From a virus: a stretch of 36,715 bases of DNA. The translations under genes and the position numbers were made by a program. Below are positions 1 to 36,715 of the stretch, piece after piece. The notes below the pieces were generated by a model. The model saw nothing but the letters and a program-made list of their open reading frames with translations, was not told the DNA's origin and searched no databases. Positions within the stretch are counted from its first letter, which is position 1. Each line of letters starts with the position of its first letter. The stretch spans positions 1-36,715 of the IMG/VR virus record IMGVR_UViG_3300045988_069160; one strand, given 5' to 3'.

Positions 1-119
1 AAGGAGTAAATCATGAGCACAAGAGCACTTGAAGATATTTGCGAGAAGCTCTGCCGTGAGCTTGATGAAATCGCAAAGAAACCCGAGCTCGGAGCGGGTG
101 ATCTGGATATCGTCCATAA
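1..119. repeat. Terminal direct repeat, copy 1 (identical to 36597..36715)
   Basis: AAGGAGTAAATCATGAGCAC...GATATCGTCCATAA at 1-119 is repeated base for base at 36597-36715. Confidence 0.95.
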
Positions 120-393
120 GCTGACCGACACCATGAAGAACATCTACAAGATAGAGATGTACGAAGAGGACGGAGGCTATAGCCGCGCGGGCGAATGGGA
201 AGCGGATATGCGCGGCCGTTACGGACGCGGCAGCAGCTACGCCCATCGTGGGCAGCACTATGTGCGTGGCCACTACAGCCGCACTGACGCTCGCGAGCGC
301 ATGCGTTCGCAAATGGAGGATATGATGCGGGACGCCGACGATGATCGCACTCGCGAGGCTATCCGCCGCTGCATGAACGAGCTCGACAGCTGA
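13..393 (+). CDS. Hypothetical protein with Arg/Gly/Tyr/His-rich low-complexity centre
   Basis: AAGGAG RBS at 1-6, ATG at 13, 126 aa. Helical N- and C-terminal parts flank GGYSRAGEWEADMRGRYGRGSSYAHRGQHYVRGHYSR. No family recognised. Confidence 0.75.
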   Translation: MSTRALEDICEKLCRELDEIAKKPELGAGDLDIVHKLTDTMKNIYKIEMYEEDGGYSRAGEWEADMRGRYGRGSSYAHRGQHYVRGHYSRTDARERMRSQMEDMMRDADDDRTREAIRRCMNELDS

Positions 394-408: not shown

Positions 409-765
409 ATGCTCGACAAGCAGGAGATTCGCAAGGAGATAGCCCGCCTCGAGTATGAGGAATCGAGCTACCCGAACTATGCCAAGCTCGCCGACCTGTA
501 CATAATCAGCGCTGAGATGGAGAAATCCAACGAAAGAATAGAGCCGCGCTATGAGCGGCTCTATTCGAGGGCAGCTGCCCCGGCTGGAATGCACATGCCG
601 CAGAACGCGGTCAACATAGATGCTGCGGACAGCGATTTCTTAAAAGCTGTGAGCGGGAAAGATGCGGGCGCGGTGTGGAAAATCATGGATGAACTCATGG
701 AAAGCCTGCATGTAATGCAGCCCCGCACCTATAGCGCGGTCATGCGGCAGCTCCGGGAGCTGTAG
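409..765 (+). CDS. Hypothetical protein
   Basis: GGGAGGGAG RBS lies 6 nt upstream of the ATG. 118 aa. It follows the previous gene by 15 nt. No motif recognised. Confidence 0.7.
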   Translation: MLDKQEIRKEIARLEYEESSYPNYAKLADLYIISAEMEKSNERIEPRYERLYSRAAAPAGMHMPQNAVNIDAADSDFLKAVSGKDAGAVWKIMDELMESLHVMQPRTYSAVMRQLREL

Positions 766-4875: not shown

Positions 4876-4899
4876 CGGAATCACCCCCTTTCAACATGG

Positions 4900-4978: not shown

Positions 4979-4988
4979 GATTTATACT
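4960..4988 (+). promoter_or_regulatory. Rightward early promoter
   Basis: TTGACT (4960-4965), 17 nt, TATACT (4983-4988), upstream of the first + strand early gene. Confidence 0.65.
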
Positions 4989-5040
4989 TTGGACAGTCCA
5001 AAAAACAAATCAACTGCGAACACGAAAAGGAGACAAAACA

Positions 5041-5268: not shown

Positions 5269-5295
5269 ACGGGAACGGCTTGAAAGGAGAGAGAA

Positions 5296-5583: not shown

Positions 5584-5673
5584 CGCGTCGCCGGGCGGCA
5601 ATCCCCGCCCACCTTAATGCGGCCTTGCGCGAGAGCGCGAGCCGGTCACAAGCCCGGATAAACGCAGAGTGAG

Positions 5674-6021: not shown

Positions 6022-6069
6022 AATTCTTGTTAATAAAGCCCTGCTGGGCGTGAATGGAGGTAAACGACA

Positions 6070-6222
6070 ATGAGTGAAGAGATGAAGAAAGAACTTGAAG
6101 AGGCGATAGAGCAGCTCAGACAGCTGCCGCCGGAGAAGCAGAACATGTGCACGGGCTTTGTGCTCGGCGTCAACGCCACGGCGGCGCTCAAGGCCACCCA
6201 GCCCGCGCCGCAGGACAAGTGA
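6070..6222 (+). CDS. Small hypothetical protein (50 aa)
   Basis: Not in the track because it is under 60 aa. GGAGG RBS at 6056-6060, ATG at 6070. Product: MSEEMKKELEEAIEQLRQLPPEKQNMCTGFVLGVNATAALKATQPAPQDK. Its stop overlaps the RBS of the next gene. Confidence 0.55.
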   Translation: MSEEMKKELEEAIEQLRQLPPEKQNMCTGFVLGVNATAALKATQPAPQDK

Positions 6223-6233
6223 GGAGGCAGAAT

Positions 6234-6467
6234 GTGACATCCTCAGAAGCTCGCGATTGGCTTGAATCGCTGGACTGCATTGACCTCACACCGGAGCAGG
6301 CCGCGAAGGCGCTCAACTGCAACCCGCACGCGATCAGGCTGCAGGCACATGACGCTCCGGAGAAGCTCGGGTATCGCGTCTCAGTTACAAACCGCACCGT
6401 CAGGATTCCACGCCGGCCTTTTATAGAGTTCTGGTGGGGGTCTGCGGAGAATAAGCCGTCGGCATGA
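6234..6467 (+). CDS. Excisionase-type (MerR-like) HTH DNA-binding protein, candidate Xis or early regulator
   Basis: GTG at 6234 with GAGGAGG RBS 6 nt upstream; the track ORF starts earlier, at 6147. 77 aa. LTPEQAAKALNCNPHAIRLQA...RTVRIPRRPFIEFW fits the excisionase-family HTH pattern. Confidence 0.6.
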   Translation: MTSSEARDWLESLDCIDLTPEQAAKALNCNPHAIRLQAHDAPEKLGYRVSVTNRTVRIPRRPFIEFWWGSAENKPSA

Positions 6468-6496
6468 CCGCGGCAGAAATCAAGGGGGAGAAAACA

Positions 6497-6718
6497 ATGG
6501 ACAAGCTTACAGCTGCAGAGACACAGTTCCGACAGATGGGCCTTCGCGATCTGGAGAAGTGCGCGGCAGAAGCCGAACACCTCATAACCAAGCGCACGGA
6601 GGAGATGTTTGAGCTTGCGAACGAGATTCGACAGCTCGACTATGAAGCTTTCCAGAGGATCAGCACCGCTGTCAATGCGGAGTTGGCCGGGAGGAAAGGA
6701 GCCACAGAAGATGGATAA
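6497..6718 (+). CDS. Hypothetical coiled-coil protein
   Basis: ATG at 6497 follows an AAGGGGGAG RBS. 73 aa. Confidence 0.6.
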   Translation: MDKLTAAETQFRQMGLRDLEKCAAEAEHLITKRTEEMFELANEIRQLDYEAFQRISTAVNAELAGRKGATEDG

Positions 6719-6848
6719 CCCGTTATCATGGCTGACCGTGACGGCAGCCGTCGCGTACCTTATCGGCTGCCTGTTCAGACAGGCGGCGTATGAAATCGAA
6801 GAGCGCCACGCGGCGAGTGAGCGCGCGTGGAAGGAGGAAGGACTATGA
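6711..6848 (+). CDS. Small membrane protein (45 aa)
   Basis: AGGAAAGGAG RBS, ATG at 6711. One hydrophobic helix: LSWLTVTAAVAYLIGCLF. Confidence 0.5.
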   Translation: MDNPLSWLTVTAAVAYLIGCLFRQAAYEIEERHAASERAWKEEGL

Positions 6849-7111
6849 GCACAGGGACAATATGCCTGCTGATCTCGGCGGGCATCATGATAATCGTGAC
6901 AATCTATCTTGACATCGTCGGCGAGCAGGTGGCGGAGATCAAGGAGATTGCGGAGGAGCAGGGCTGGGCAGACCCGGCCAAGGTGCAGGAGCTGGGCGAG
7001 CGCCCGCGTAGCTGCGCCGCGCACCGCCGCAGCAGACCGGCGCCGGCGCCGGCAGTGATGGACGCGCAGTACTTCACCATGCCCGACGGTGAGAGAGTGA
7101 GGCGCAGATGA
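6845..7111 (+). CDS. Small membrane protein
   Basis: GGAAGGAGGAAGG RBS, ATG at 6845, 88 aa. N-terminal TM segment: ICLLISAGIMIIVTIYL. Confidence 0.55.
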   Translation: MSTGTICLLISAGIMIIVTIYLDIVGEQVAEIKEIAEEQGWADPAKVQELGERPRSCAAHRRSRPAPAPAVMDAQYFTMPDGERVRRR

Positions 7112-7350
7112 ACAAGCCCATTTACACCATGACGGACGCAGAGCTTCAGGCTGAGAACGACCGTCTGCGCCGAGAGAATGACCGGCTCTGCAAGGCGCTT
7201 GCCGACATGGCCGAGGAGAACGCGGAGCTGCGCGCCAAGTATGACGGCCTTGTAGCCGGCGTCAAGGCTCTCAAGAATAAGATCAGAGAGGAGGAGAAGA
7301 GGCATGCCGGAGGAAGAAAGAGCGGCGGAGCAGGAGCAGGAAGAGTTTAA
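7108..7350 (+). CDS. Hypothetical coiled-coil protein
   Basis: ATGA overlap with the previous gene. 80 aa. Heptad-like sequence: AELQAENDRLRRENDRLCKALADMAEENAELRAKY. Confidence 0.6.
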   Translation: MNKPIYTMTDAELQAENDRLRRENDRLCKALADMAEENAELRAKYDGLVAGVKALKNKIREEEKRHAGGRKSGGAGAGRV

Positions 7351-7558
7351 GCTCCGCTCCTGCAAGCATAAGAACTGCAAGTACCGCGCGACCAGCAACA
7401 ACGCATACGGCGTGTACAACTGCGACTACGCTCTTATAACCGGCCACACCCGCGCAGCGCAGCACCCCCCGGACAAGCGTCAGCCTGCGGACTGCATGCT
7501 GTACGAGCCGCGCACCGGCAAGAAGCCACGGCGTAAGCCCTTTGTACAGACAGGATGA
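7304..7558 (+). CDS. Hypothetical Cys-containing protein
   Basis: 84 aa. Contains CKHKNCKY...NCDY...C. It overlaps its neighbours in the operon. Confidence 0.55.
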   Translation: MPEEERAAEQEQEEFKLRSCKHKNCKYRATSNNAYGVYNCDYALITGHTRAAQHPPDKRQPADCMLYEPRTGKKPRRKPFVQTG

Positions 7559-7863
7559 GCAGCAAGAAGAAGGATGCGTCCCAGCAGTACATAAGCCTGT
7601 GCCCCGATCACTACCGGAGATTCGACACCAAGCATTACCAACTGACCCACGAAGCAGACAACAGCAGCTGCGCATTTTGCGGACGCGCGGCAGCACAGTA
7701 CAGTTTCATACCCCGGTACGTAATAAAGCGTCAGCGGCAGCGCAGCGCTCCAGCGCGCAGCCGCGACACGCGGGCACAGTACCGGGGAGACTGGAGGGAG
7801 TCAATATATGGAAACAACAATGACAGCAGCGAGCGCCCGGAAGAAGATGCCCTGCCCTACTGA
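7555..7863 (+). CDS. Hypothetical protein with zinc-ribbon-like CPDH...CAFCG
   Basis: ATGA overlap with the previous gene. 102 aa. The C-terminal third overlaps the VRR-NUC gene and is compositionally odd. Confidence 0.5.
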   Translation: MSSKKKDASQQYISLCPDHYRRFDTKHYQLTHEADNSSCAFCGRAAAQYSFIPRYVIKRQRQRSAPARSRDTRAQYRGDWRESIYGNNNDSSERPEEDALPY

Positions 7864-8224
7864 GGGAGTAGAACAGGCTACGCTATTCTCCTGGGCGTCA
7901 ATGCGCACTTACTGGCATCCGGAACTTAACCTGATGTTCCACATCCCGAACGGCGGGAAGCGGAGCAAGGCCGAGGCCGGGCGCTTCCGCGCCGAGGGCG
8001 TAAAGTCCGGCGTGCCGGATATCTGCCTGCCGGTAGCCCGCGGCGGCTATCACGGCCTGTTCATAGAGCTAAAGCGTCAGCACGGAAACACCACCACGAA
8101 GAATCAGGACACATGGCTTGCCGACTTGCGCGAGCAGGGATATGCGACTGCCGTAGCTTACGGCTGGGAGCAGGCGGCGAAGATCATCACAGACTATATG
8201 GAGGAAGAGTATGAAAATAAATAA
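7808..8224 (+). CDS. VRR-NUC domain nuclease (PD-(D/E)xK fold)
   Basis: 138 aa, GGAGGGA RBS. GVPDICLP...GLFIELKR supplies the D...E-x-K signature typical of VRR-NUC. Confidence 0.9.
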   Translation: METTMTAASARKKMPCPTEGVEQATLFSWASMRTYWHPELNLMFHIPNGGKRSKAEAGRFRAEGVKSGVPDICLPVARGGYHGLFIELKRQHGNTTTKNQDTWLADLREQGYATAVAYGWEQAAKIITDYMEEEYENK

Positions 8225-8810
8225 GATTGCCGGTATCTGCAAGCGCGCCGGGATGATCAGACTCTACGATGAGCACACCGGAGATATGCAATGGTGCGGC
8301 ACGGATGCGGCCATATACCCGCTGTACTCTCTGCCGGTGCTTGACGGCGATACCGTAGGTCCCGTTATGAATTTCTCCGACAAGGAGCTGAAGAACATCG
8401 TGGTTGAGCACATGCGCATTCCCTTGCGCTACGACGTCAACGACACCGCCGAGGGCGAGAAGTATATCGGAGAGCCGGTGTTCCGATTCCTCATAGGCAG
8501 CACCGTATACAACGCATACCAGCGTCCGGGAACACTTGGCGTGCTGTTCATCAATGCGGCGTACCTCAAGCCGCTGCTCGGCGGAGAGGATGATCCTGAA
8601 CTCTATCTCCGTAATGGCGACAGCTTCACCGGTGAGTACATAGCAGTAAAGCAGGGACTTATGCTTGCGGCGATCATTGAGCCGGAACTGGATATTCTGA
8701 GCGCGAGCCTTATCAACAGTGTCTCGGCGCTTGCAGTTGCCGTGAACAACGAAATCCACCGCTTGGACGGCATCCCCGATACAGACCCGGAGACGGGCGA
8801 GATCGTATAA
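8211..8810 (+). CDS. Hypothetical protein
   Basis: 199 aa, good coding character. No motif recognised. Confidence 0.75.
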   Translation: MKINKIAGICKRAGMIRLYDEHTGDMQWCGTDAAIYPLYSLPVLDGDTVGPVMNFSDKELKNIVVEHMRIPLRYDVNDTAEGEKYIGEPVFRFLIGSTVYNAYQRPGTLGVLFINAAYLKPLLGGEDDPELYLRNGDSFTGEYIAVKQGLMLAAIIEPELDILSASLINSVSALAVAVNNEIHRLDGIPDTDPETGEIV

Positions 8811-8813
8811 CGA

Positions 8814-9692
8814 ATGGACAAAGAACAAACTGCAATGGAGCGGCTGCGGCTGGCGTCGGATATGTCGCTGCGCCTGTATCACCGTCCGCTGCTGCTGACT
8901 GACAGCGGCGGCAAGGACAGCGCCGTGATCTGCAAGCTCGCGGAGAACGCAGGGATTCCCTTTGAGATCGTCCACTCTCACACGACCGCGGACGCGCCCG
9001 AGACTGTCTATCATGTCCGCAAGCGCGCCAAAGAATACGAACTCAAAGGCGTAAGCTATACGATCCATTACCCCACATATAAGGGCAAGCCGACAAGTAT
9101 GTGGGAGCTCATACCCATTAAGCTCATGCCGCCGACACGGTTAGCCCGTTACTGCTGCGCTGTGCTCAAGGAGACAACAGGCCGCGGCAGGTTCATAGCG
9201 ACCGGTGTGCGCTGGGCGGAGAGCACAGCACGGAAGAACAATCGCAGCAGCCTTGAAATAATCCACGCAGACAGGAAGAAGACCCTGCTGCTGAACAATG
9301 ATAACGATGAAGATAGGCGGCTCTTCGAGACATGCACGCTCAAGGGCGAGCGTGTCTGCAATCCTATCATCGACTGGCAGGAATCCGATGTGTGGGACTA
9401 CCTCACAGAACAGCACGTCGAATGCAATCCACTATACTGCAAGGGCTGGCCCCGCGTGGGCTGTATCGGCTGCCCGCTGGCGGGCAAAGCACGGTATAGA
9501 GAGTTTGCCCAATATCCAAAGTACAGGCCGATGTACATCAATGCGTTTGACCGCATGCTCGCGGAGCGCCAGCGCCGCGGAAAGATGAACGGCTCATGGA
9601 GAATGGGCACTACCGGCGTTGATGTATTCCACTGGTGGATGGAGGACGGCGTTCTGCCGGGGCAGTTCGAGATTGAGGAGGATGAACCGTGA
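8814..9692 (+). CDS. PAPS reductase-family (PP-loop ATP pyrophosphatase, DndC/IbrA-like) protein
   Basis: 292 aa. PP-loop LLTDSGGKDSAV and a C-terminal Cys cluster CNPLYCKGWPRVGCIGCP. Confidence 0.9.
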   Translation: MDKEQTAMERLRLASDMSLRLYHRPLLLTDSGGKDSAVICKLAENAGIPFEIVHSHTTADAPETVYHVRKRAKEYELKGVSYTIHYPTYKGKPTSMWELIPIKLMPPTRLARYCCAVLKETTGRGRFIATGVRWAESTARKNNRSSLEIIHADRKKTLLLNNDNDEDRRLFETCTLKGERVCNPIIDWQESDVWDYLTEQHVECNPLYCKGWPRVGCIGCPLAGKARYREFAQYPKYRPMYINAFDRMLAERQRRGKMNGSWRMGTTGVDVFHWWMEDGVLPGQFEIEEDEP

Positions 9693-14174: not shown

Positions 14175-15401
14175 ATGCAAAAGATGAACATCGTTTACAA
14201 GCGGCTCGATGAGCTGCGGCCATACGAAAACAACGCGAAGACCCACCCGGAATCACAGCTTGCCAACATTGCCCACAGCATCGCGACGTATGGCTGGAAA
14301 CAGCCGGTGGTAATAGACCCCTACGGAGTCATCATCGTCGGACACGGGCGCGTACAGGCGGCACAGCGGTCAAACGTGCTGCGAGACCAGCTTGTGCCGT
14401 GCATTATAGCCGATGATCTGACCGAAGAAGAGATAGCGCAGTTCAGGATCGTCGACAACAAGTCAGCGGAGTCCCCGTGGGATATGGACGCACTCGCAGC
14501 CGAGCTTGAAAAGGTCGACCTGTCGGGATTTGATTTTGATTTCGGGTTCGAGGACAAACTGAGCGCCGAGGTAGTCGAGGACAATTACGTGCCGGAGCTG
14601 CCTGAAAAGCCGAAAGCACGAGCGGGCGATGTGTACCAGCTGGGGGGGCACAGACTGATGTGCGGCGACAGCACGAAACGCGAGGATGTGGAGAAGCTGT
14701 GCGCCGGGGTCCAGATGGATTTACTCTTGACCGACCCGCCGTATAACGTGGACTACGAGGGCACGGCCGGGAAGATCAAGAACGACCACATGGCATCGGA
14801 TAAGTTCCGCGAGTTCCTCACGGCGGCGTTCCGGAATGCGGCTGCTGTGATGAAGCCCGGAGCGGGATTTTACATTTGGCACGCGGACTCGGAGGGCTAT
14901 AACTTCCGCGGGGCCTGCATGGACAGCAAGTTCCAGATTCGACAGTGCCTGATCTGGGTAAAAAACACACACGTAATGGGGCGACAGGACTTCCAGTGGA
15001 AGCACGAGCCTTGCCTGTACGGCGAGCGGGAGATCGAGGAAGATGAAATACCACTCGGCGATGAAACACAGCCGTGTTTGTACGGCTGGAAAGATGGCGC
15101 GCGGCACTATTTCTTCAAAAACCGCAAGCAATCCACCGTGCTTGAGTTTCCGAAGCCGATAAAGAGCAAGGAGCACCCGACGATGAAGCCAGTGCGCCTG
15201 TTCGACTACCAGATGCAGTGCTCGACGCACACCGGGGACAGCGTCCTCGACCTGTTCGCCGGGAGCGGGACGACGATCATAGCGGCGGAGCAGAACGGGC
15301 GGCGTGCATACTGCATGGAGTTCGACCCGCACTATGTCGACGTGATAATCGACCGCTGGGAGAAATTCACCGGCGAGCGGGCGGTGCTGCTGAATGAATG
15401 A
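14175..15401 (+). CDS. ParB-like nuclease domain fused to an N6A/N4C DNA methyltransferase
   Basis: 408 aa. N-terminal ParB-like motifs RPYENNAKTHP...IIVGHGR, followed by the beta-class methyltransferase motifs LLLTDPPYNVDY and DLFAGSGTT. Confidence 0.95.
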   Translation: MQKMNIVYKRLDELRPYENNAKTHPESQLANIAHSIATYGWKQPVVIDPYGVIIVGHGRVQAAQRSNVLRDQLVPCIIADDLTEEEIAQFRIVDNKSAESPWDMDALAAELEKVDLSGFDFDFGFEDKLSAEVVEDNYVPELPEKPKARAGDVYQLGGHRLMCGDSTKREDVEKLCAGVQMDLLLTDPPYNVDYEGTAGKIKNDHMASDKFREFLTAAFRNAAAVMKPGAGFYIWHADSEGYNFRGACMDSKFQIRQCLIWVKNTHVMGRQDFQWKHEPCLYGEREIEEDEIPLGDETQPCLYGWKDGARHYFFKNRKQSTVLEFPKPIKSKEHPTMKPVRLFDYQMQCSTHTGDSVLDLFAGSGTTIIAAEQNGRRAYCMEFDPHYVDVIIDRWEKFTGERAVLLNE

Positions 15402-21607: not shown

Positions 21608-22744
21608 ATGGCAGAAGCGAATCTGATTAAGAGAGAAGATCTCTCGCGAGTGAGAGAAATGGAGTTTGTCGACCAGTTCGGCTACTCCGTCAAGAAGCTG
21701 CTGGAGGTTCTGGGCGTCACCAGAAAAATCAAGAAGCAGCCCGGAACCGTCCTCAAGAGCTATAAGGCGAAGGGAAAGCTTGAGAGCGGGATCGTCGGCG
21801 AAGGTGAAACCATACCGCTGAGCAAGTATGAGGTCGAAGAGATCAACTACAAGGAAATCACGCTGAAGAAGTGGCGTAAGGCCACCACCCTTGAAGCAAT
21901 TGTAGACCGCGGCTACGATCAGGCCGTCGAGGCTACCACGGCTGAAATGCTGCGTGATGTACAGAGGGGAATCCGAAAGGACTTCTTCACGTTCATGCTG
22001 AGCGGAGAGACCTCGGCCACAGGTAAGAACTTCCAGACTGCGCTCGCGCGCATGTGGGGACAGCTTCAGATCCTCTTTGAGGACGACAATATCCAGGCAG
22101 TGTACTTCATGAACCCGATGGATGTTGCAGACTACCTCGCCGATCACAACATCACTGTGGAGAGCGTGTTCGGTATGAGGTATGTGGAGAACTTCCTCGG
22201 CATCGGCACCACGTTTTTCAATTCCTCCGTGCCGCAGGGGAAGATTGCCGCGACCGCGTCCGGGAACATCGTCTGCTACTACGTCGACGCCGCAACGGCG
22301 GATGTCGCCGAGGCGTTCAACTTCACCACCGATGAGACCGGCCTGATCGGCATTCACGAGACTTCGGACTACGATAACCTTACCTCGAAGGACACGGTTG
22401 TCTCGGGTGTGGAGCTGTTCGCAGAGCGTATCGACGGCATTGTCGTCGGCACGATCGGCAGCACTCTCGGCGCCCTGACCGTCACGAGCGCCGCCGGTAA
22501 GGCTTCCGGCACCACGAAGCTGACGGTAACCCCGGCCAAGAGCAGCGCGGGCAACATCTACAAGTACAAGGTCGGCGAAGCAGCTGAAACCGTGACCATG
22601 GGCGAAGACGTGTCCGGCTGGGACAGCTGGGACGGCGCGGCGGACATCACGGCCGCGACGGGGAAGACCCTGACCCTTGTCGAGGCGGACAGCCTCAATA
22701 AGGCGGTAGCGTCCGGCTCGGCCACGGTAACGGCCAAGGGCTGA
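21608..22744 (+). CDS. Major capsid protein (HK97 fold) with C-terminal Ig-like domain
   Basis: 378 aa, positioned after the scaffold gene. The C-terminal ~90 aa (LTVTSAAGKASGTTKLTVTPAKS...ASGSATVTAKG) have a beta-strand-rich, Ig-like character. Confidence 0.9.
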   Translation: MAEANLIKREDLSRVREMEFVDQFGYSVKKLLEVLGVTRKIKKQPGTVLKSYKAKGKLESGIVGEGETIPLSKYEVEEINYKEITLKKWRKATTLEAIVDRGYDQAVEATTAEMLRDVQRGIRKDFFTFMLSGETSATGKNFQTALARMWGQLQILFEDDNIQAVYFMNPMDVADYLADHNITVESVFGMRYVENFLGIGTTFFNSSVPQGKIAATASGNIVCYYVDAATADVAEAFNFTTDETGLIGIHETSDYDNLTSKDTVVSGVELFAERIDGIVVGTIGSTLGALTVTSAAGKASGTTKLTVTPAKSSAGNIYKYKVGEAAETVTMGEDVSGWDSWDGAADITAATGKTLTLVEADSLNKAVASGSATVTAKG

Positions 22745-32307: not shown

Positions 32308-33015
32308 ATGGGAGTTATAGACAATGCCGCGGCATACGCGCAGAACATTGCGGCGGACGACAGCCACGGCTACGATCAGGCCGGCCGCTGGGGACCTGAC
32401 TACGATTGCAGCAGTCTGGTGATCTCCGCTTTCAGGAAAGCAGGGGTCCCGCTCAGCTGCACTTACACCGGCAACATGCGCGGGGACATGCTGAGGCATG
32501 GCTTCGAGGATGTGACCGGCAGCGTCGATCTCACGACCGGCGCGGGGCTTGAGCGCGGGGACGTGCTGTTAAACCATGTCCATCACACCGCCCTGTATAT
32601 AGGCGGCGGGCAGCTCGTACAGGCGAGCATCAACGAGTACGGCGGCACGACCGGAGGCCAGACCGGCGACCAGACCGGGCGCGAGATATACACGCGCGGG
32701 TACTATAACTACCCTTGGGACTGCGTGCTGCGGTACACCGGGGCAGAACCGGACACGGTGCCGGCCACAAAGAAGCCGACACGCTATGTCACCGTCGAGC
32801 TGCCCATGCTGGAGGACGGACAGACGGGCGTAGTCGTCGCCATGCTTCAGGCGGCATTGAAATATCTCGGTTATGATCCAAAGTGGATCGATGGCGAGTT
32901 CGGAATCAGGACGCGCAACATGCTCATGGCCTATCAGGCGGAGCACGGCCTTGAAGCTGACGGCATCTGTGGGAAAGACACGTACAAGAGTTTGATAGGA
33001 GGTGAGCGGAAATGA
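32308..33015 (+). CDS. Endolysin: N-terminal Cys-His peptidoglycan hydrolase (Amidase_5 / NlpC-P60-like) plus C-terminal PG_binding_1 domain
   Basis: 235 aa. N-terminal motifs: HGYDQAGRWGPDYDCSSLV...HHTALYIG. C-terminal repeat: LQAALKYLGYDPKWIDGEFGIRTRNMLMAYQAEHGLEADGICGKDTYKSL. Confidence 0.9.
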   Translation: MGVIDNAAAYAQNIAADDSHGYDQAGRWGPDYDCSSLVISAFRKAGVPLSCTYTGNMRGDMLRHGFEDVTGSVDLTTGAGLERGDVLLNHVHHTALYIGGGQLVQASINEYGGTTGGQTGDQTGREIYTRGYYNYPWDCVLRYTGAEPDTVPATKKPTRYVTVELPMLEDGQTGVVVAMLQAALKYLGYDPKWIDGEFGIRTRNMLMAYQAEHGLEADGICGKDTYKSLIGGERK

Positions 33016-33108
33016 CCAAGATACTGAGATACTGATATGAACCGGCAGGGAAAAGTAACTATACGCGCGAAGAATCTTAACTTTAGTCAAAACAAAGGAG
33101 AAACAAAA

Positions 33109-33606
33109 ATGAATGCACCTGACAAAGCCTTGCAGTTCAAGGCATGGATCGTCGCAGCTATCGCCTTCCTCACAGCATTGTGGGGCTGGGTCGGCTGGGC
33201 GGTAATCATCTGGATCGCCTGTATAGTCCTCGACTATGCTACGGGAACCTGGGCCGCGAAGAGCGCCGGGGACTGGTCGTCCGCCGTAGCAAGAGCGGGA
33301 CTGTGGCACAAGCTGGGCGAGATCGTCGCCGTGCTTGTGGCGGCGCTTTGTGATATAGCAATTAGTGTAATTATTAACGGAGCCGGCATAGATATCGGCA
33401 TAACGTTCGGGACGCTCATCACGCCGGTCGTGCTGCTCTGGTACATAATAACGGAGCTCGGCAGCATCATTGAAAACGCCGGTAAGCTCGGCGCACCTAT
33501 CCCGGAATGGCTTAAGAAGTGGCTCAGAAATTATAAGAATAAAATAGATTCAGATCATGAGCCGCCTGTTGAAATAATCGAGTCTGACGAAACTCAGAAC
33601 GAATAA
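33109..33606 (+). CDS. Holin (Phage_holin_4_1 / TcdE-like family)
   Basis: ATG at 33109 follows an AAAGGAG RBS. 165 aa with 3-4 TM segments. Contains LDYATG...WYIITELGSIIENAGKLGAPIPEWLKK. Confidence 0.9.
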   Translation: MNAPDKALQFKAWIVAAIAFLTALWGWVGWAVIIWIACIVLDYATGTWAAKSAGDWSSAVARAGLWHKLGEIVAVLVAALCDIAISVIINGAGIDIGITFGTLITPVVLLWYIITELGSIIENAGKLGAPIPEWLKKWLRNYKNKIDSDHEPPVEIIESDETQNE

Positions 33607-33725
33607 GCAACACGCGCCGCGTGCAGTCGAAGGCCTGCGTGCCTACGCGGGGTATTGATGTAAGCTGCACCCGGCGCAAACAGAAAAATCCTTGTAAACC
33701 GATAGACCGATAGAGAGGTATTGAC

Positions 33726-33899
33726 GTGACTGCAACCGTCAAAGAATTTTGCCGGATCAACGGCATTGATGAAAAATCAGAAAATCTTACAGAGCTGCTC
33801 TACTCTGCTCTGACTGGCGGTGATACCGATAGACGCGTTATCCGATCTGATGACTCCCGGCAAGAAAGCAAAACTGCAATTTCCGACGGCGCTCCGTGA
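33726..33899 (+). CDS. Small ORF (57 aa, GTG start) preceding and overlapping the HTH ORF in another frame
   Basis: Not in the track. AGAGAGG RBS lies 7 nt upstream of GTG at 33726. Product begins VTATVKEFCRINGIDEKSENLTELLYSALTGG...; the last ~25 aa overlap the HTH ORF. Confidence 0.4.
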   Translation: MTATVKEFCRINGIDEKSENLTELLYSALTGGDTDRRVIRSDDSRQESKTAISDGAP

Positions 33900-34065
33900 A
33901 AAATTCATAGCCGAGTGCGGCTTCACACTTGAGGAGAAAACGATCCTAAATATGAGGGCTGACGGTTTTTCACTGCTGGAAATAGCCAGCAGGCAGAACT
34001 GCAGCGTGGAGACAATAAACCGGCGCATCCGGAGCATTAAAAACAAGATAGCGGAATCAGTTTAG
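33850..34065 (+). CDS. LuxR/GerE / sigma-70 region-4-type HTH protein
   Basis: The track ORF runs 33820-34065 from a GTG; ATG at 33850 gives 71 aa. Neither start has an RBS. FTLEEKTILNMRADGFSLLEIASRQNCSVETINRRIRSIKNKI matches the LuxR/GerE-type HTH pattern. Confidence 0.65.
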   Translation: MTPGKKAKLQFPTALREKFIAECGFTLEEKTILNMRADGFSLLEIASRQNCSVETINRRIRSIKNKIAESV

Positions 34066-34124
34066 AGCGACGCACCATGCGCCGCTCTTTCATATATCCC
34101 GAGACAGATTACTGACAGATTCCC

Positions 34125-34158
34125 GGCAGGTAACGGACATGTTACCTGCCCTTTTTTA
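34125..34158 (+). terminator. Rho-independent terminator
   Basis: GGCAGGTAAC (34125-34134) / GTTACCTGCC (34141-34150), a perfect 10-bp stem, followed by CTTTTTTAT. Confidence 0.8.
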
Positions 34159-34190
34159 TCTTAGAATTTAAGCAGAAAAAGGTGATGCGC

Positions 34191-34571
34191 ATGTATGTAC
34201 ATTTTAACCCTAACCCAGCGGGACACTCGGTTGGTGATTGCGTGATCAGGGCGTTGTGCAAAGCCACGGGGGAAAGCTGGGACAAGACCTTTGTTGAGCT
34301 GGCCGTGACGGGCTTCGAGCTGTCGGATATGCCGAGCGCAAACGCTGTGTGGGGCGCATATCTCCACAGAAAAGGCTACACGCGCACGGCGCTGCCTGAT
34401 AAGTGCCCGGAGTGCTATACGGTGAAGCTCTTTACGGAGGAGCATCCGCACGGCACATATATTCTCGCACTGAGCGGGCACGTTGTTGCGGTGCAGGATG
34501 GCAACTATTTTGACGCATGGGATTCAGGCGACGAGATCCCGTTGTATGTATGGAAGGAGCAGAAAACATGA
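34191..34571 (+). CDS. Hypothetical protein with papain-like Cys...His...Asp arrangement
   Basis: ATG at 34191 lies 7 nt after AAGGTG; the track starts at GTG 34182. 126 aa. Motifs: NPAGHSVGDCVIRAL, then LSGHVVAVQDGNYFDAWDSG. Confidence 0.75.
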   Translation: MYVHFNPNPAGHSVGDCVIRALCKATGESWDKTFVELAVTGFELSDMPSANAVWGAYLHRKGYTRTALPDKCPECYTVKLFTEEHPHGTYILALSGHVVAVQDGNYFDAWDSGDEIPLYVWKEQKT

Positions 34572-35041
34572 ACTATTCTCCACAGTACCCAGCATATCAG
34601 CCTCAGCAGTTTTACCCAGCTTATAATCCACCGATGATGGACAACCTTGCGCAGATGCGCGCCCAGCAGTACGCTCCGCAGCCCCAACAGCCGGCGCCCA
34701 CGCCAGCAGCCACACAGCAGGGCGGCGTGAACTGGGTACAGGGCGAGGCAGGGATGAAGGCATTCCTGGTTGCTGCCGGAAATAGCGTTTTGCTGTTCGA
34801 CAGCGAGAATCCGACTTTCTGCATTAAGAGCGCAGATCAGAGCGGGATGCCGCTGCCGCTGCGCATCTTCGATTACACGGAGCGCACACAGCCGTCACAG
34901 GCGCCCGTAGCGGCGTCGCAGCCGCAGAGCGTTGAATATGTACCCCGGGCGGAGTTTGATGCGTTGGCGGCGCAGGTGGCGGCGCTGACGGCCAAGAAAC
35001 AGCGCAAGACGCAGAGTGAGGAGGCTACGGTAAATGAGTAA
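34568..35041 (+). CDS. Hypothetical protein with Pro/Gln/Tyr-rich N-terminus
   Basis: ATGA overlap, GGAAGGAG RBS, 157 aa. N-terminus reads MNYSPQYPAYQPQQFYPAYNPP...QQYAPQPQQPAPTPAATQQ. A globular core follows (VNWVQGEAGMKAFLVAAGNSVLLFDSENPTFCIKSADQSGMP). Confidence 0.75.
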   Translation: MNYSPQYPAYQPQQFYPAYNPPMMDNLAQMRAQQYAPQPQQPAPTPAATQQGGVNWVQGEAGMKAFLVAAGNSVLLFDSENPTFCIKSADQSGMPLPLRIFDYTERTQPSQAPVAASQPQSVEYVPRAEFDALAAQVAALTAKKQRKTQSEEATVNE

Positions 35042-35267
35042 TTCAATTTTTCAGGCACTCGGCGGCGCACAGCAGGCTGCACCGCGGATGCCCGGCATGG
35101 CCGGACAGTTCCAGAACATGATGCAGAAGTTCCAGCAGTTCAGAGCTACCTTTCAGGGTGACCCAAGGCAGGAAGTGGAGAAACTCTTGCAGAGCGGGAG
35201 AATATCCCAGCAGCAGCTCAATCAGGTGCAGGGCCTCGCGCAGCAGTTCATGCAGTTCCTCAAGTAA
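35034..35267 (+). CDS. Gln-rich small hypothetical protein
   Basis: GAGGAGG RBS, overlaps the previous gene by 8 nt. 77 aa, rich in Q, M and F. Confidence 0.65.
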   Translation: MSNSIFQALGGAQQAAPRMPGMAGQFQNMMQKFQQFRATFQGDPRQEVEKLLQSGRISQQQLNQVQGLAQQFMQFLK

Positions 35268-35325
35268 TCTATATCGTGGCCACGATTAAGATAAATTAAA
35301 AAATTCCGAAAGGAGAAAACACAAA

Positions 35326-36057
35326 ATGAGTCTTTCCGATAACGTTCCCTTTACCATGCCGGTGACTCCTGCCAACTCGAACGGCGACGGCTTCGGCTGG
35401 GGCGGCGGTCTGTTCTGGATCGTCATCCTGTTTTTCCTCGCTGCGTTCGGCTGGGGCGGTAACGGCTGGGGCGGCAACAATGGCGGTGTGATGGACGGCT
35501 ACGTCCTCACGTCCGACTTTGCGAACATCGAGCGCAAGCTCGATGTTGTAAACAACGGCATCTGTGATGGCTTCTACGCGATGAACACCGGGATGCTCAA
35601 CGGCTTTGCCGGGGTCACCCAGGCGGTCACGAGCGGATTCTCGGCGGCAGAGATAGCGAGATGCAACTCTCAGATGGCGTTTATGCAGCAGTTCTTCGCA
35701 CTGCAGCAGTCGCTCTCCGATTGCTGCTGCCAGAACCGCGAGGCGATAGCACAGGTCCGCTATGACATGGCCACTCAGGCATGTGATACGCGCAACACCG
35801 TGCAGAACGCCACCCGCGATATCATCGACAATCAGAACGCCAATAGCAGAGCCGTTCTGGACTATCTCCAGAATAGCAGGATGAGGGATCTGGAAGCCGA
35901 GAATGCGAGCCTGAGGCTCGCAGCATCTCAGGCGGCACAGAACAATTACCTTGTGAACACGCTGCGCCCGCCCGCTTCCCCCGCGTATATCGTGCAGAAT
36001 CCCTACTGCTGCAATCAGCAGTACACGGGCTGCGGTTGTGGCTGCGGTGCCGCCTGA
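35326..36057 (+). CDS. Membrane protein: Gly/Trp-rich N-terminus with one TM helix, helical core with a CCC motif, Cys-rich C-terminus
   Basis: AAAGGAG RBS, 243 aa. Sequence features: GDGFGWGGGLFWIVILFFLAAFGWGGNGWGGNNGG, then ...SLSDCCCQNRE..., then NPYCCNQQYTGCGCGCGAA. Confidence 0.8.
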   Translation: MSLSDNVPFTMPVTPANSNGDGFGWGGGLFWIVILFFLAAFGWGGNGWGGNNGGVMDGYVLTSDFANIERKLDVVNNGICDGFYAMNTGMLNGFAGVTQAVTSGFSAAEIARCNSQMAFMQQFFALQQSLSDCCCQNREAIAQVRYDMATQACDTRNTVQNATRDIIDNQNANSRAVLDYLQNSRMRDLEAENASLRLAASQAAQNNYLVNTLRPPASPAYIVQNPYCCNQQYTGCGCGCGAA

Positions 36058-36124
36058 CAATTGCACACCGGTCAACTTGTCGGAATAATCGACATGTTCA
36101 GCCCCAAGAGCTGATATCAACACA

Positions 36125-36156
36125 AACGGCGGGGCTTAATGCCTCGCCGTGCTTTT
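36125..36156 (+). terminator. Rho-independent terminator
   Basis: ACGGCGGGGC (36125-36134) / GCCTCGCCGT (36140-36149), 10 bp including one G-U pair, followed by GCTTTTT. Confidence 0.75.
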
Positions 36157-36173
36157 TGAAAGGATGAATAGAA

Positions 36174-36596
36174 ATGGCTGAATACACAAATGCAAACACT
36201 GCGACCGTCGCAGCGGGGCAGAATGTCCCGTTTACCGAGGAGACGGTATCCGGTAACCCCTGCATTGTCCATCGCGAGGGAGCGGGCATTATCACGCTCC
36301 GCGGTCTGACGAACCAGTGCCGCGCACGGTTCAAGGTTTCGTTCGGCGCTAATATCGCCCTGCCGACCGGCAGCACCGTCGGCGCGATCTCGGCGGCGAT
36401 AGCCGTCAACGGTGAGCCTCTGAACAGCGCCACAGGCATTGTCACCCCAGCCGCTGTGGACCAGTACGGCAACATCTACGTTGCCGCAAACATCGATGTC
36501 CCGCGTGGCTGCTGCCTCACCGTGGCGGTCAAGAACACCAGCGGGCAGGCTATCAATTTTGCGAACGTCAACCTTATTGTTGAGCGTGTCGCATGA
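36174..36596 (+). CDS. Beta-rich hypothetical protein (BclA-C-terminal / C1q-like impression only)
   Basis: AAAGGA RBS, 140 aa. Alternating hydrophobic pattern, ending ...RGCCLTVAVKNTSGQAINFANVNLIVERVA. The fold assignment is from memory and has not been verified. Confidence 0.8.
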   Translation: MAEYTNANTATVAAGQNVPFTEETVSGNPCIVHREGAGIITLRGLTNQCRARFKVSFGANIALPTGSTVGAISAAIAVNGEPLNSATGIVTPAAVDQYGNIYVAANIDVPRGCCLTVAVKNTSGQAINFANVNLIVERVA

Positions 36597-36715
36597 AAGG
36601 AGTAAATCATGAGCACAAGAGCACTTGAAGATATTTGCGAGAAGCTCTGCCGTGAGCTTGATGAAATCGCAAAGAAACCCGAGCTCGGAGCGGGTGATCT
36701 GGATATCGTCCATAA
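36597..36715. repeat. Terminal direct repeat, copy 2 (identical to 1..119)
   Basis: Exact 119-bp match to the window start. It includes the RBS and the first 107 nt of the 13-393 gene (36609-36715). Confidence 0.95.

What the first reader, a model, noticed from the sequence alone, without database searches (positions are those of the whole stretch)
33726..36596. A ~3.7-kb post-lysis cassette (continuing across the circular junction to 765) of low-complexity, Cys-rich and membrane proteins with a GerE/LuxR-type regulator: possible spore-surface-like or lysogenic-conversion module
Nine + strand genes between the holin and attP have no virion or lysis role that I can assign. They are:
- A small LuxR/GerE-type HTH protein (33850-34065).
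- A Cys-His protein (34191-34571).
- A P/Q/Y-rich protein (34568-35041).
- A Q-rich small protein (35034-35267).
- A membrane protein whose N-terminus, GFGWGGGLFWIVILFFLAAFGWGGNGWGG, recalls YjcZ-type sporulation peptides. It also has CCC and CCNQQYTGCGCGCG motifs (35326-36057).
- A beta-rich protein of about 140 aa (36174-36596).
- An R/G/Y/H-rich protein (13-393).
- A 118-aa protein (409-765).

The cassette is delimited by strong terminators at 34125 and 36125 and occupies the classic moron position next to attP. The composition (Tyr/Gly/Cys/Gln-rich, GerE-like regulator) is reminiscent of spore coat or exosporium proteins. This link is speculative.
Basis: inference. Interest (0 to 1): 0.65.

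Follow-up and report, generated by a model that had tools for sequence, protein, structure and literature searches.

The report
Conserved gut-phage accessory operon after lysis genes
The genes after the lysis cassette are real and form a tightly conserved multi-gene operon of unknown function that recurs in gut viruses of very different hosts, including hosts that never make spores, so it is not a spore-coat module.

Summary
The window ends in a 119-bp terminal duplication, so the cassette runs unbroken from 33726 across the junction to 765.

The core order (papain-like Cys-His-Asp protein, Q/P/Y-rich protein, Q-rich 77-aa protein, single-pass CCC-motif membrane protein, 140-aa beta protein, R/G/Y-rich protein, 118-aa protein) recurs in 75 of 88 related loci. 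It follows at least eight endolysin types. A diverged small sigma-70-region-4/LuxR-type HTH gene plus a terminator usually precedes it.

The 140-aa protein models confidently as a TNF/C1q jelly roll. Its best matches are the Bacillus exosporium proteins ExsFA/BxpB and the BclA C-terminal domain. This is the only support for the spore idea.

The full cassette occurs in Butyrivibrio phage Ceridwen, which has no integrase and a non-sporulating host. Analogous cassettes occur in crAss-like and Bacteroides phages. The membrane protein also occurs in viruses assigned to methanogenic archaea. Spore-surface and lysogenic-conversion readings are therefore refuted.

Function is unknown. My best guess is a separately regulated, membrane-anchored complex with a processing peptidase, acting during lytic growth. 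A conserved three-hairpin RNA ending in a terminator splits the operon.

The parts
33613..33678 (+). Match to the Rfam DUF3800-VIII RNA motif, between the holin stop and the HTH gene. Membership in the cassette is uncertain.
   Evidence: 42.1 bits against a gathering score of 40.2; E 1.2e-5 in the 3.2-kb search. Not found upstream of the cassette in 13 other loci.
33726..33899 (+). 57-aa acidic ORF overlapping the start of the HTH gene in another frame. Its N-terminal 30 residues are conserved wherever this HTH type occurs.
   Evidence: 18 loci, always together with the HTH gene
33820..34065 (+). Small sigma-70-region-4/LuxR-type HTH protein (81 aa from GTG, 72 aa from the ATG at 33850). Presumed regulator of the cassette.
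   Evidence: GerE 3.3e-5, HTH_38, Sigma70_r4_2; phage sigma-factor PHROGs; a diverged 73-91-aa HTH gene sits at the same position in nearly all lineages
34125..34150 (+). Intrinsic terminator after the HTH gene, followed by a -10-like TAGAAT and the ribosome-binding site of the next gene.
   Evidence: One search shows the arrangement 'HTH stop - hairpin + T-run - short spacer - cassette' in lineages with unrelated sequence.
34191..34571 (+). Papain-like (clan CA-like) cysteine enzyme with invariant Cys20, His100 and Asp111, numbered from the GTG at 34182. Homologues begin at the MY... that corresponds to 34191.
   Evidence: invariant columns; AF2 pLDDT 91.7; top three PDB hits Josephin-2, AvrPphB and the ComA C39 domain, all weak at E 0.09-0.14; 2976 clusters at 50% identity
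34568..35041 (+). Protein with a Q/P/Y-rich N-terminus, a small conserved beta domain and a C-terminal helix. Its start overlaps the stop of the Cys-His gene (ATGA). In some phages it is fused to the Cys-His protein.
   Evidence: phrog_21718; (natural fusions P0305, P0365, P0370)
35034..35267 (+). 77-aa basic protein, 25% Gln. Overlaps the preceding gene by 8 nt.
   Evidence: phrog_22984, 2e-20
35326..36057 (+). Single-pass membrane protein. It has a Gly/Trp-flanked transmembrane helix, an N/Q-rich helical region with an invariant CCC motif, and a Pro- and Cys-rich C-terminal tail (LRPxxxPAY...CGCGCG).
   Evidence: phrog_16490, 4e-41; more than 585 relatives in IMG/VR; hydropathy 2.04 at residue 23; CCC invariant from Bacillota phages to crAss-like, Bacteroides and archaeal viruses
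36058..36160 (+). Conserved three-hairpin RNA element ending in an intrinsic terminator. Stems are at 36078-82/36090-94, 36098-102/36110-14 and 36126-35/36141-50. It divides the operon in two.
   Evidence: 95.9% of cells paired against 37-54% when partners are slid, 9 of 20 pairs with compensatory changes, covariation 0.351 against 0.10-0.14. No Rfam match.
36174..36596 (+). 140-aa TNF/C1q-like jelly-roll protein with no signal peptide and conserved Cys49 and Cys113-Cys114.
   Evidence: 7427 homologues; pLDDT 86.5, pTM 0.82; ExsFA/BxpB, BclA-CTD and F-BclA, E 8e-7 to 7e-6, TM 0.62-0.73; stand-alone 130-145-aa proteins of gut phages, TM 0.8-0.89
13..393 (+). 126-aa protein with an N-terminal helical part, an R/G/Y/H-rich disordered middle and a C-terminal helix. 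Also readable from 36609 because of the terminal duplication.
   Evidence: phrog_28802. Counterparts in other lineages are R/G/Y-rich regions joined to DUF7841.
409..765 (+). 118-aa helical protein, the last gene of the cassette.
   Evidence: 51 loci; homologues in C. perfringens phage CPD1 at E 1e-8 and in Ceridwen at E 2e-23
36597..36715 (.). Terminal duplication of the assembly, identical to 1-119. It marks the circular junction.

Best explanation
The region is one copy of a widespread, self-contained accessory operon of gut tailed viruses. It has nothing specifically to do with spores or lysogeny.

Shown:
- The gene set and order are conserved behind many unrelated lysis modules and in phages with unrelated virion genes.
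- A small sigma-70-region-4/LuxR-type HTH gene plus a terminator usually precedes it.
- A covarying three-hairpin RNA ending in a terminator separates the first four genes from the last three.
- The Cys-His protein has an invariant Cys-His-Asp set and a papain-like model. It is translationally coupled to the Q/P/Y-rich protein and in some phages fused to it.
- The membrane protein family carries an invariant CCC motif across viruses of three host phyla.
- The 140-aa protein is a TNF/C1q jelly roll of the ExsF/BclA-CTD type.

Inferred:
- The HTH protein drives a promoter that has only a -10 box, lying just behind the terminator.
- The products assemble at the cytoplasmic membrane of the infected cell into a spike-like complex.
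- In that complex, the membrane protein's helical stalk and its Pro/Cys-rich tail are bound by the TNF-like trimer, much as the ExsF trimer docks the proline-rich leader peptides of BclA and F-Anchor.
- The peptidase and its Q/P/Y-rich adaptor process or tether a partner.
- The R/G/Y-rich and helical proteins are accessory subunits.
- The RNA element sets the ratio between the two halves of the operon.
- Because the module sits next to lysis genes in several unrelated genome architectures, I place its action in lytic growth, around the control of lysis or egress, or the exclusion of incoming phage DNA.
For: Conservation:
- Order kept in 75 of 88 loci.
- Eight endolysin types lie upstream.
- 54 of 66 IMG/VR loci have a recognised lysin or holin within 3.5 kb upstream.
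- The cassette is kept at 42-68% identity in MT835513 and MT835739, whose portal, capsid and tail genes are not detectably related.

Host range and lifestyle:
- Full cassette in integrase-less Ceridwen (PMC7372960).
- Partial cassette in C. perfringens phage CPD1.
- Analogous cassettes in Bacteroidota phages, with an HTH gene, the membrane protein, a beta protein, a coiled-coil protein, an R/D/Y-rich protein, DUF7841 and an HExxH peptidase.
- Membrane-protein homologues in Methanomassiliicoccales viruses.

Components:
- Fold matches.
- Invariant residues.
- Fusions of the Cys-His and Q/P/Y-rich proteins.
- HTH gene plus terminator architecture.
- RNA element.
- ExsF docks proline-rich leader peptides in clefts of the trimer interface (PMC12357932, read).
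- In crAss-like cr52_1 and cr118_1 the module directly follows a LysB/FtsL-like protein with a transmembrane segment and coiled coil.
Against: - No experiment or expression data bears on timing or location.
- The membrane protein's topology cannot be decided from charge distribution.
- No structure was obtained for five of the seven core proteins.
- The papain-like assignment rests on weak Foldseek scores (E about 0.1, TM 0.38-0.50) plus the residue pattern.
- The docking of the Pro-rich tail to the TNF-like trimer is an analogy and was not tested.
- In Bacteroides phage C3_41T2LP, in CPD1 and, for the lone Cys-His gene, in Geobacillus GBK2, the genes lie beside replication or early genes rather than immediately after lysis genes. 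This fits an early or host-takeover role as well.
- In temperate Bacillota siphoviruses almost anything non-essential ends up after the lysin, so that linkage is weak evidence by itself.
Confidence: 0.35

Rival explanations
1. First reader's reading. The cassette is a lysogenic-conversion module whose products are built into or modify the host spore coat or exosporium under a GerE-like regulator.
For: - The 140-aa protein's best structural matches are the exosporium proteins ExsFA/BxpB and the BclA C-terminal domain.
- The composition is rich in Cys, Tyr, Gly and Gln.
- The small HTH protein passes the Pfam GerE cut-off by 0.4 bits.
- The cassette lies next to attP and the integrase in this window.
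- Related contigs are binned with Oscillospiraceae/Clostridia.
Against: - The full cassette is in a phage of non-sporulating Butyrivibrio fibrisolvens that has no integrase (PMC7372960).
- Analogous cassettes are in crAss-like and Bacteroides phages, and the membrane protein is in archaeal viruses.
- There is no Pfam BclA_C match, no collagen repeat, no exosporium leader and no YjcZ match.
- The TNF/C1q fold is common in phage fibre tips and in giant-virus proteins.
Confidence: 0.04
2. The products are accessory virion proteins. They would be capsid-internal or ejected cargo, or decoration or fibre proteins, matured by the cassette's own peptidase, in the manner of phage P1 Dar proteins or of polyvalent proteins with embedded metallopeptidases.
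For: - The peptidase slot is conserved but filled by different folds: papain-like in Bacillota phages and HExxH in Bacteroidota phages. This fits a processing role as described for packaged proteins (PMC5512222).
- A hydrophobic helix together with a Q/M-rich small protein could be an ejection protein and its holdase.
- TNF-like domains are typical tips of phage fibres.
- In cr116_1 and cr52_1 the genes lie among packaging and tail genes.
- The window, Dulem virus 33 and Ceridwen share both the head-tail genes and the cassette.
Against: - The cassette is kept in phages with unrelated portal, capsid and tail genes and in different morphotypes. This is unusual for parts that must fit a particle.
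- It has its own HTH gene and is insulated by terminators from the late operon.
- It lies after the lysis genes, outside the structural block.
- The TNF-like protein is highly conserved rather than hypervariable, unlike receptor-binding tips.
Confidence: 0.2
3. The cassette is an early host-takeover or anti-defence module. The Cys-His enzyme would act as a protease or deconjugating enzyme against a host defence or host protein, and the other products would be co-effectors.
For: - The Cys-His gene occurs alone at the start of early regions: in Geobacillus GBK2 before recE/recT, and in Bacillus Tsamsa-like phages near an ocr-like anti-restriction gene. It also occurs in Lak megaphages.
- The best weak fold match is a deubiquitinase, Josephin-2.
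- In CPD1 and C3_41T2LP the cassette sits among early or replication genes.
- Homing endonucleases are inserted within or next to it in at least five viruses.
Against: - There is no PADLOC or anti-defence family match.
- Anti-defence genes are usually single, fast-evolving and patchy, not a seven-gene set kept in order at 40-70% identity.
- A membrane protein and a TNF-like trimer have no precedent in anti-defence.
Confidence: 0.15
4. The products are effectors released by phage lysis, such as a bacteriocin-like or adhesive/lectin complex acting outside the cell. The Cys-His protein would act as a C39-type leader peptidase.
For: - The cassette lies next to the holin and endolysin, as do toxins released by phage lysis.
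- The spacing of Cys, His and Asp resembles that of the ComA C39 domain.
- Many Q-rich proteins begin with ...ALGG.
- Some TNF-like domains act as lectins; BC2L-C is among the hits.
Against: - The GG motif is not conserved; it is absent in Ceridwen and CPD1.
- There is no ABC transporter or immunity gene.
- There are no signal peptides.
- The same module is present in viruses of three host phyla with very different competitors.
Confidence: 0.06
5. There is no common function. The genes are unrelated small morons that travel together only because of shared ancestry.
For: Individual genes can occur alone (the Cys-His gene; the membrane protein with only a beta protein). Some lineages lack or add genes.
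Against: - Order is kept across phages whose other modules are unrelated.
- There are overlapping stop and start codons and natural gene fusions.
- The same parts list recurs in Bacteroidota phages, with non-homologous replacement of the peptidase.
- A conserved internal RNA element is present.
Confidence: 0.08

Closest known systems
ExsFA/BxpB and the BclA C-terminal domain (Bacillus cereus-group exosporium; PDB 7r1m, 8d02, 9h3d, 1wck)
   Same: The 140-aa protein has the same TNF/C1q jelly-roll fold and about the same size. These are the best PDB matches (E 8e-7 to 7e-6, TM 0.62-0.73). Like ExsF, it is a stand-alone domain without a collagen stalk.
   Different: - Sequence identity is only 14-19%, with no Pfam BclA_C hit.
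- There is no exosporium leader or collagen repeat in any cassette protein.
- It is encoded by phages, including phages of hosts that make no spores.
- Closer structural relatives are uncharacterised 130-145-aa proteins of gut phages (TM 0.8-0.89).
Papain-like cysteine peptidases (clan CA: Josephin, AvrPphB/C58, ComA C39 domain)
   Same: An invariant Cys at the start of a helix, a His on a strand about 80 residues later, and an Asp 11 residues after that. The model has an alpha-plus-beta layout, and its top three PDB hits are all clan CA.
   Different: - Fold scores are weak (E about 0.1).
- There is no Pfam, NCBIfam or PDB sequence match.
- The substrate is unknown, and no ABC transporter or ubiquitin-like partner lies nearby.
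- A transglutaminase-type transferase activity cannot be excluded.
Phage P1 Dar proteins and polyvalent proteins with embedded zincin metallopeptidases (Iyer et al. 2017, PMC5512222)
   Same: A set of phage proteins that comes with its own processing peptidase. The GenBank record of Bacteroides phage C3_41T2LP names the peptidase of its cassette a PolyVal metallopeptidase. The P1 darA operon also carries lysis-control genes; this last point is from my own knowledge.
   Different: The proteins are small and separate rather than one giant polypeptide. No anti-restriction, methylase, helicase or ParB domains are present. Packaging into the particle is not shown.
Spanins (lambda Rz/Rz1, P2 LysB) and other membrane-tethered lysis regulators
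   Same: An N-terminal membrane anchor followed by a helical region with conserved cysteines, encoded beside the holin and endolysin.
   Different: The hosts here include monoderm bacteria and archaea, which have no outer membrane to fuse. No lipoprotein partner is present. There is no sequence similarity. Six soluble partners have no counterpart in spanin systems.
Morons and lysogenic-conversion cassettes between lysin and attP (for example the staphylococcal immune-evasion cluster and the PVL genes)
   Same: The position in this temperate phage, the cassette's own regulator, and the terminators.
   Different: The products have no signal peptides. The cassette is also present in integrase-less and virulent phages. 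It is far more conserved and more widely distributed than known conversion genes.

Membership tests
BclA_C / ExsF-BxpB exosporium TNF-like proteins | TNF/C1q-type jelly-roll fold | tested here: met
   AF2 model with pLDDT 86.5; Foldseek top hits 9h3d, 7r1m, 8d02, 1wck and 9h38
BclA_C / ExsF-BxpB exosporium TNF-like proteins | Detectable sequence membership (Pfam BclA_C or a PDB sequence match) | tested here: not met
   No Pfam hit above noise; phmmer against PDB sequences finds nothing at E <= 10
BclA_C / ExsF-BxpB exosporium TNF-like proteins | Occurrence in endospore formers, with collagen-like or exosporium-leader partners | tested here: not met
   Homologue in a Butyrivibrio phage. No collagen repeats or leader motif in any cassette protein.
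GerE/LuxR-type HTH regulators | LuxR/sigma-70-region-4 type helix-turn-helix | tested here: met
   Pfam GerE 23.9 bits (cut-off 23.5). HTH_38 and Sigma70_r4_2 score similarly but below their cut-offs, so only the superfamily is assigned.
GerE/LuxR-type HTH regulators | Control of late mother-cell (sigma-K) coat genes | not testable with these tools
   No expression data. Hosts of several homologous cassettes do not sporulate.
YjcZ-family sporulation peptides | Match to the family model | tested here: not met
   NCBIfam scan of the 243-aa protein gives no family at E <= 1
Papain-like cysteine peptidases (clan CA) | Conserved Cys/His (plus Asp/Asn) catalytic residues in the canonical order | tested here: met
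   C20, H100 and D111 are invariant in 40 sequences of 56-86% identity
Papain-like cysteine peptidases (clan CA) | Papain-like fold | tested here: inconclusive
   Model pLDDT 91.7, but the best Foldseek hits have E 0.09-0.14 and TM 0.38-0.50
C39 bacteriocin-processing peptidases | Double-glycine leader substrate and an associated ABC transporter | tested here: not met
   No transporter in any locus. The GG near the N-terminus of the Q-rich protein is absent in Ceridwen and CPD1.
Known anti-phage defence systems (PADLOC-DB) | Match of any component to a defence-system model | tested here: not met
   Only noise-level hits, E >= 0.002 on short stretches
Lysogenic-conversion morons | Restricted to temperate phages or prophages, next to the attachment site | tested here: not met
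   Present in Ceridwen (no integrase, all genes on one strand) and in crAss-like phages
Spanins | Membrane-anchored coiled-coil protein paired with an outer-membrane lipoprotein in a diderm host | tested here: not met
   No lipoprotein gene in the cassette. The same family occurs in phages of monoderm hosts and in archaeal viruses.
Rfam RNA families (for the element at 36058-36160) | Match to a curated covariance model | tested here: not met
   No match at E <= 1 in 33500-36715 other than DUF3800-VIII at 33613-33678

The most novel reading that the evidence does not exclude
The cassette is one instance of an undescribed multi-protein system shared by tailed viruses of the gut that infect Bacillota, Bacteroidota and probably methanogenic archaea. 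The system comprises:
- a dedicated small HTH regulator;
- a membrane protein with an invariant CCC motif;
- a small beta-sandwich or TNF-like partner;
- a protein with a beta domain and a coiled coil;
- an R/G/Y-rich disordered protein with a DUF7841-type or similar helical domain;
- an interchangeable peptidase (papain-like or zincin).

It would perform a step of the viral cycle at the cell membrane that is not yet recognised.
Probability: 0.45. Interest if true: 0.8.

Novelty: categorically new. Interest (0 to 1): 0.62.

Why it matters
The families are very abundant. The 140-aa protein has 7427 clusters at 90% identity, the Cys-His protein has 2976 clusters at 50% identity, and the membrane protein has more than 585 IMG/VR relatives. 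All are annotated only as hypothetical, PHROG 'unknown function' or DUF.

A module kept in order across viruses of hosts as different as Clostridia and Bacteroides, with the membrane protein also in Methanomassiliicoccales viruses, points to a general and unrecognised step in gut virus biology. That step would lie at the membrane or around lysis.

Two cultured systems carry the module, so the question is directly testable: Butyrivibrio phage Ceridwen on B. fibrisolvens DSM 3071, and Bacteroides phage C3_41T2LP on B. uniformis.

The result also warns against reading a BclA/ExsF-like fold or coat-like composition in a phage as evidence of a spore function.

Tried and rejected
- Sequence searches of the 140-aa and Cys-His proteins against PDB, as single sequences and as a profile, found nothing.
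- Pfam, NCBIfam and PADLOC scans of all cassette proteins and of diverse homologues found only the HTH hit and, in the alternative lineage, DUF7841.
- Profile-profile comparison among the cassette families found no paralogy. It did not link the beta proteins of cr116_1 or CPD1 to the 140-aa family.
- The double-glycine leader/C39 idea is rejected because the GG is not conserved and no transporter is present.
- The GerQ/Tgl idea (a transglutaminase cross-linking a Q-rich coat protein) has no sequence support, because NCBIfam gives no GerQ hit. It is kept only as an untested alternative activity.
- I tested whether the cassette simply tracks one virion lineage. It does in the window, Dulem virus 33 and Ceridwen, but not in MT835513 or MT835739.
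- The DUF3800-VIII RNA motif is not a general feature of the cassette.
- Literature searches for DUF7841, C3_41T2LP and prophage-borne BclA/TNF-like proteins found no description of this module.
- Only two structure predictions were allowed, so the membrane protein, the Q/P/Y-rich, Q-rich and R/G/Y-rich proteins and the 118-aa protein were not modelled.

Full report
**Observation**

The window is a temperate siphovirus genome. It has a tyrosine integrase (1138-2253, minus strand), XRE-type repressors, a large terminase, an SPP1-type portal, a capsid protein, a tape measure, an NlpC/P60-type endolysin with a PG_binding_1 domain (32308-33015) and a holin (33037-33606).

The two terminator hairpins at 34125-34150 and 36126-36150 are found by the scan. 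The last 119 bases of the window repeat the first 119. The genome is therefore circular or terminally redundant with a unit length of 36596 bp. The R/G/Y/H-rich gene follows the 140-aa gene after 12 nt, and the cassette is one uninterrupted block from 33726 to 765.

The stop and start codons of the first three genes overlap (34568-34571 and 35034-35041).

**The cassette is a conserved unit**

Six products match PHROG families of unknown function at E 1e-8 to 1e-57. A scan of IMG/VR with the membrane protein returned more than 585 relatives.

In the 88 loci I fetched, tblastn finds this order in 75: Cys-His protein, Q/P/Y-rich protein, Q-rich protein, membrane protein, 140-aa protein, R/G/Y-rich protein. 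The 118-aa protein follows in 51. Identity is 40-75%, while the endolysin, holin and integrase in the same loci are unrelated or about 25-35% identical.

Upstream lie endolysins of at least eight architectures:
- Amidase_2+SLH
- Amidase_2+PG_binding_1
- Amidase_3+SPOR
- two CHAP types
- GH25+CW_7
- glucosaminidase+PG_binding_1
- NlpC/P60+PG_binding_1

Of 66 loci with enough upstream sequence, 54 have one of these lysins or holins within 3.5 kb.

The window, Dulem virus 33 and Butyrivibrio virus Ceridwen share head and tail genes as well as the cassette. MT835513 and MT835739 keep the cassette at 42-68% identity without detectable portal, capsid or tail similarity. The cassette is therefore not tied to one virion type.

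Some lineages carry two extra small ORFs that the window lacks. One is a 40-64-aa ORF before the Cys-His gene. The other is a 65-70-aa ORF before the 140-aa gene.

**The regulator**

By tblastn the window's HTH protein is found in only 19 loci. Inspection of the upstream ORFs shows that nearly every lineage has a 73-91-aa protein of the same sigma-70-region-4/LuxR type at that position. This gene is followed by a hairpin with a T-run, then 10-100 nt, then the first cassette gene.

The hairpins differ in sequence between lineages, but the layout is the same. A hexamer resembling a -10 box (TAGAAT in the window) lies just after the T-run, with no good -35 box. I read this as an activator-dependent promoter. 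This is an inference.

**Components**

The Cys-His protein (2976 clusters at 50% identity) has invariant N9, N11, P12, G18, D19, C20, R23, H100, D111, W113 and S115. Its model is confident (pLDDT 91.7). The three best PDB matches are all papain-like enzymes: Josephin-2, AvrPphB and the ComA C39 domain. Their scores are weak.

Three clusters, two of them very divergent from each other, encode it fused to the Q/P/Y-rich protein (P0305, P0365, P0370). Together with the overlapping stop and start codons, this ties the two proteins functionally.

The 140-aa protein (7427 homologues) models as an all-beta domain (pLDDT 86.5, pTM 0.82). Its best PDB matches are ExsFA/BxpB, the BclA C-terminal domain and F-BclA. 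TNF-family ligands, C1q domains and some phage fibre tips follow. In the viral structure library its closest relatives are uncharacterised stand-alone proteins of 130-145 aa from gut phages (TM 0.8-0.89).

The membrane protein has one strongly hydrophobic segment flanked by Gly/Trp-rich runs. It has an N/Q-rich helical region. Its CCC motif is invariant in an alignment spanning Bacillota phages, crAss-like phages, a Bacteroides phage and an archaeal virus. It also has a conserved Pro- and Cys-rich tail.

None of the other products has a signal peptide or a second hydrophobic segment.

**An RNA element inside the operon**

The 100 nt after the membrane-protein stop form three hairpins, the last being the terminator at 36126-36150. 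In 21 lineages the first hairpin differs completely in sequence but keeps its pairing. The second switches between TCGGC/GCCGA and TCAGC/GCTGA.

On the alignment, 95.9% of cells pair, against 37-54% when partners are slid by one to three columns. Nine of 20 pairs show compensatory changes, and the covariation score is 0.351 against 0.10-0.14. No Rfam family matches it.

It probably attenuates transcription or stabilises the upstream message. Either way it would set the ratio between the two halves of the operon. This is an inference.

**Host range refutes the spore reading**

The complete cassette is in Butyrivibrio virus Ceridwen. It includes the small HTH gene and terminator, and a homing endonuclease is inserted between the 140-aa and R/G/Y-rich genes. 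Family profile E-values range from 2e-13 to 3e-50.

Ceridwen infects B. fibrisolvens DSM 3071. All its genes are on one strand and it has no integrase. It was seen only in lytic growth (PMC7372960). Butyrivibrio is a non-sporulating genus (established knowledge).

C. perfringens phage CPD1 has a variant between its lysis and replication genes: a Q/Y/N-rich protein, a Q/M-rich 77-aa protein, an HNH endonuclease, the membrane protein, a Cys-rich 125-aa beta protein and a homologue of the 118-aa protein. The same variant occurs in a group of IMG/VR loci. There it lacks the Cys-His gene and ends in an R/G/Y-rich protein with a DUF7841 domain at E 3e-30.

DUF7841 proteins and membrane-protein homologues lie side by side in many crAss-like phages. 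In the cultured Bacteroides uniformis phage C3_41T2LP the set reads:
- a 98-aa HTH protein
- a homing endonuclease
- the membrane protein
- a beta protein
- a protein with a beta domain and a coiled coil
- an R/D/Y-rich 77-aa protein
- DUF7841 (E 5e-16)
- a 154-aa HExxH protein, named a PolyVal metallopeptidase by the depositors

The same parts list thus recurs, with a non-homologous peptidase in the peptidase slot.

Membrane-protein homologues, annotated phrog_16490, are also in two viruses assigned to Methanomassiliicoccales.

The Cys-His gene alone occurs in Bacillus Tsamsa-like phages, in Geobacillus GBK2 and in Lak megaphages of Prevotella.

**What it most likely is**

The evidence shows a coherent, separately regulated operon whose products include one membrane protein and six cytoplasmic proteins. 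It works in lytic infection as well as in temperate phages, and in hosts with quite different envelopes.

The common ground of those hosts is the cytoplasmic membrane. The recurrent neighbours are lysis genes. In cr52_1 and cr118_1 the neighbour is a LysB/FtsL-like protein.

ExsF trimers bind proline-rich leader peptides in the clefts between subunits (PMC12357932). By analogy, the TNF-like trimer here may bind the conserved LRPxxxPAY tail of the membrane protein, giving a membrane-anchored stalk with a trimeric head. The peptidase and its adaptor would process or tether a partner.

I put this membrane-complex reading at about 0.35. The main rivals are virion cargo or decoration proteins matured by the cassette's own peptidase (0.2) and an early anti-defence or takeover module (0.15). 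The spore-surface reading stands at about 0.04.

**Comparison with what is known**

No component beyond the HTH protein, and DUF7841 in the variant, belongs to a curated family. No defence-system model matches. I found no paper describing the module.

The folds are familiar: TNF/C1q jelly roll, papain-like enzyme and sigma-region-4 HTH. The combination, its regulation and its distribution are not those of any system I can name. I therefore rate it as a new kind of module with unknown function. Its reality as a conserved unit is well supported; its mechanism is not.

Noticed in passing
window 36597-36715 and 1-119: Exact 119-bp terminal duplication of the contig. The genome is circular or terminally redundant with a unit length of 36596 bp, so gene coordinates near the ends are duplicated.
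   Followed up: yes
window 33613-33678 (+): Match to the Rfam DUF3800-VIII RNA motif (42.1 bits, gathering score 40.2), directly after the holin stop and before the HTH gene. I identified no DUF3800 gene in the window, and the motif is absent upstream of the cassette in 13 other loci.
   Followed up: partly
window 5693-5905 (-): Full-length match to the Rfam FuFi-1 RNA (66.9 bits, E 2.8e-12) in the early region. This is a structured RNA of unknown function described by Weinberg et al. 2017.
   Followed up: no
window 36058-36160 (+); L005 6724-6826, L047 6718-6832 and 18 other loci: Covarying three-hairpin RNA ending in an intrinsic terminator, between the membrane-protein gene and the next gene. 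It is not in Rfam 15.
   Followed up: yes
L001 7280-7831; L090 5047-5670; L092 7451-8245; L104 4270-4890; L102 7695-8273: Free-standing HNH or I-HmuI-type homing endonuclease genes are inserted within or right next to the cassette in five different viruses, at three different positions. This suggests frequent exchange between co-infecting phages that share these genes.
   Followed up: partly
window 2302-2874 (-): The XRE-type HTH protein next to the integrase carries two strongly hydrophobic C-terminal segments (MLYALIAMCVILTMALIGYMIF and FAILFIIIVLLSLVVISLAV). It may be a membrane-anchored repressor.
   Followed up: no
window 33726-33899 (+) against 33820-34065 (+): A 57-aa ORF overlaps the HTH gene in the -1 frame. 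Its non-overlapping N-terminus is conserved in relatives of only 57-60% identity. It is either a real small gene or the upstream part of a frameshifted, longer HTH protein.
   Followed up: partly
P0305, P0365, P0370 (protein clusters); P0332, P0346: Natural fusions of the Cys-His domain with the Q/P/Y-rich protein, and tandem duplications of the Cys-His domain. One duplicated protein has an N-terminal hydrophobic segment.
   Followed up: partly
window 21608-22744 (+): The major capsid protein carries a C-terminal domain matching the S-layer SbsC C-terminal (Ig-like) domain at E 1e-15, probably a surface decoration domain.
   Followed up: no
window 14175-15401 (+): An N6/N4 DNA methylase fused to a ParB-N-like domain lies just upstream of the terminase genes.
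   Followed up: no
L102 (crAss-like cr52_1) 3668-9366: Translations with table 11 contain in-frame stops within annotated genes, consistent with stop-codon recoding in this phage. Alignments with its proteins are therefore approximate.
   Followed up: no
L085 and L086 (contig CAVEPP010000001.1, binned as Alloprevotella sp.): The same 46.7-kb contig holds two copies of the cassette about 30 kb apart. It looks like a concatemer of a circular phage genome binned with an unlikely host.
   Followed up: no
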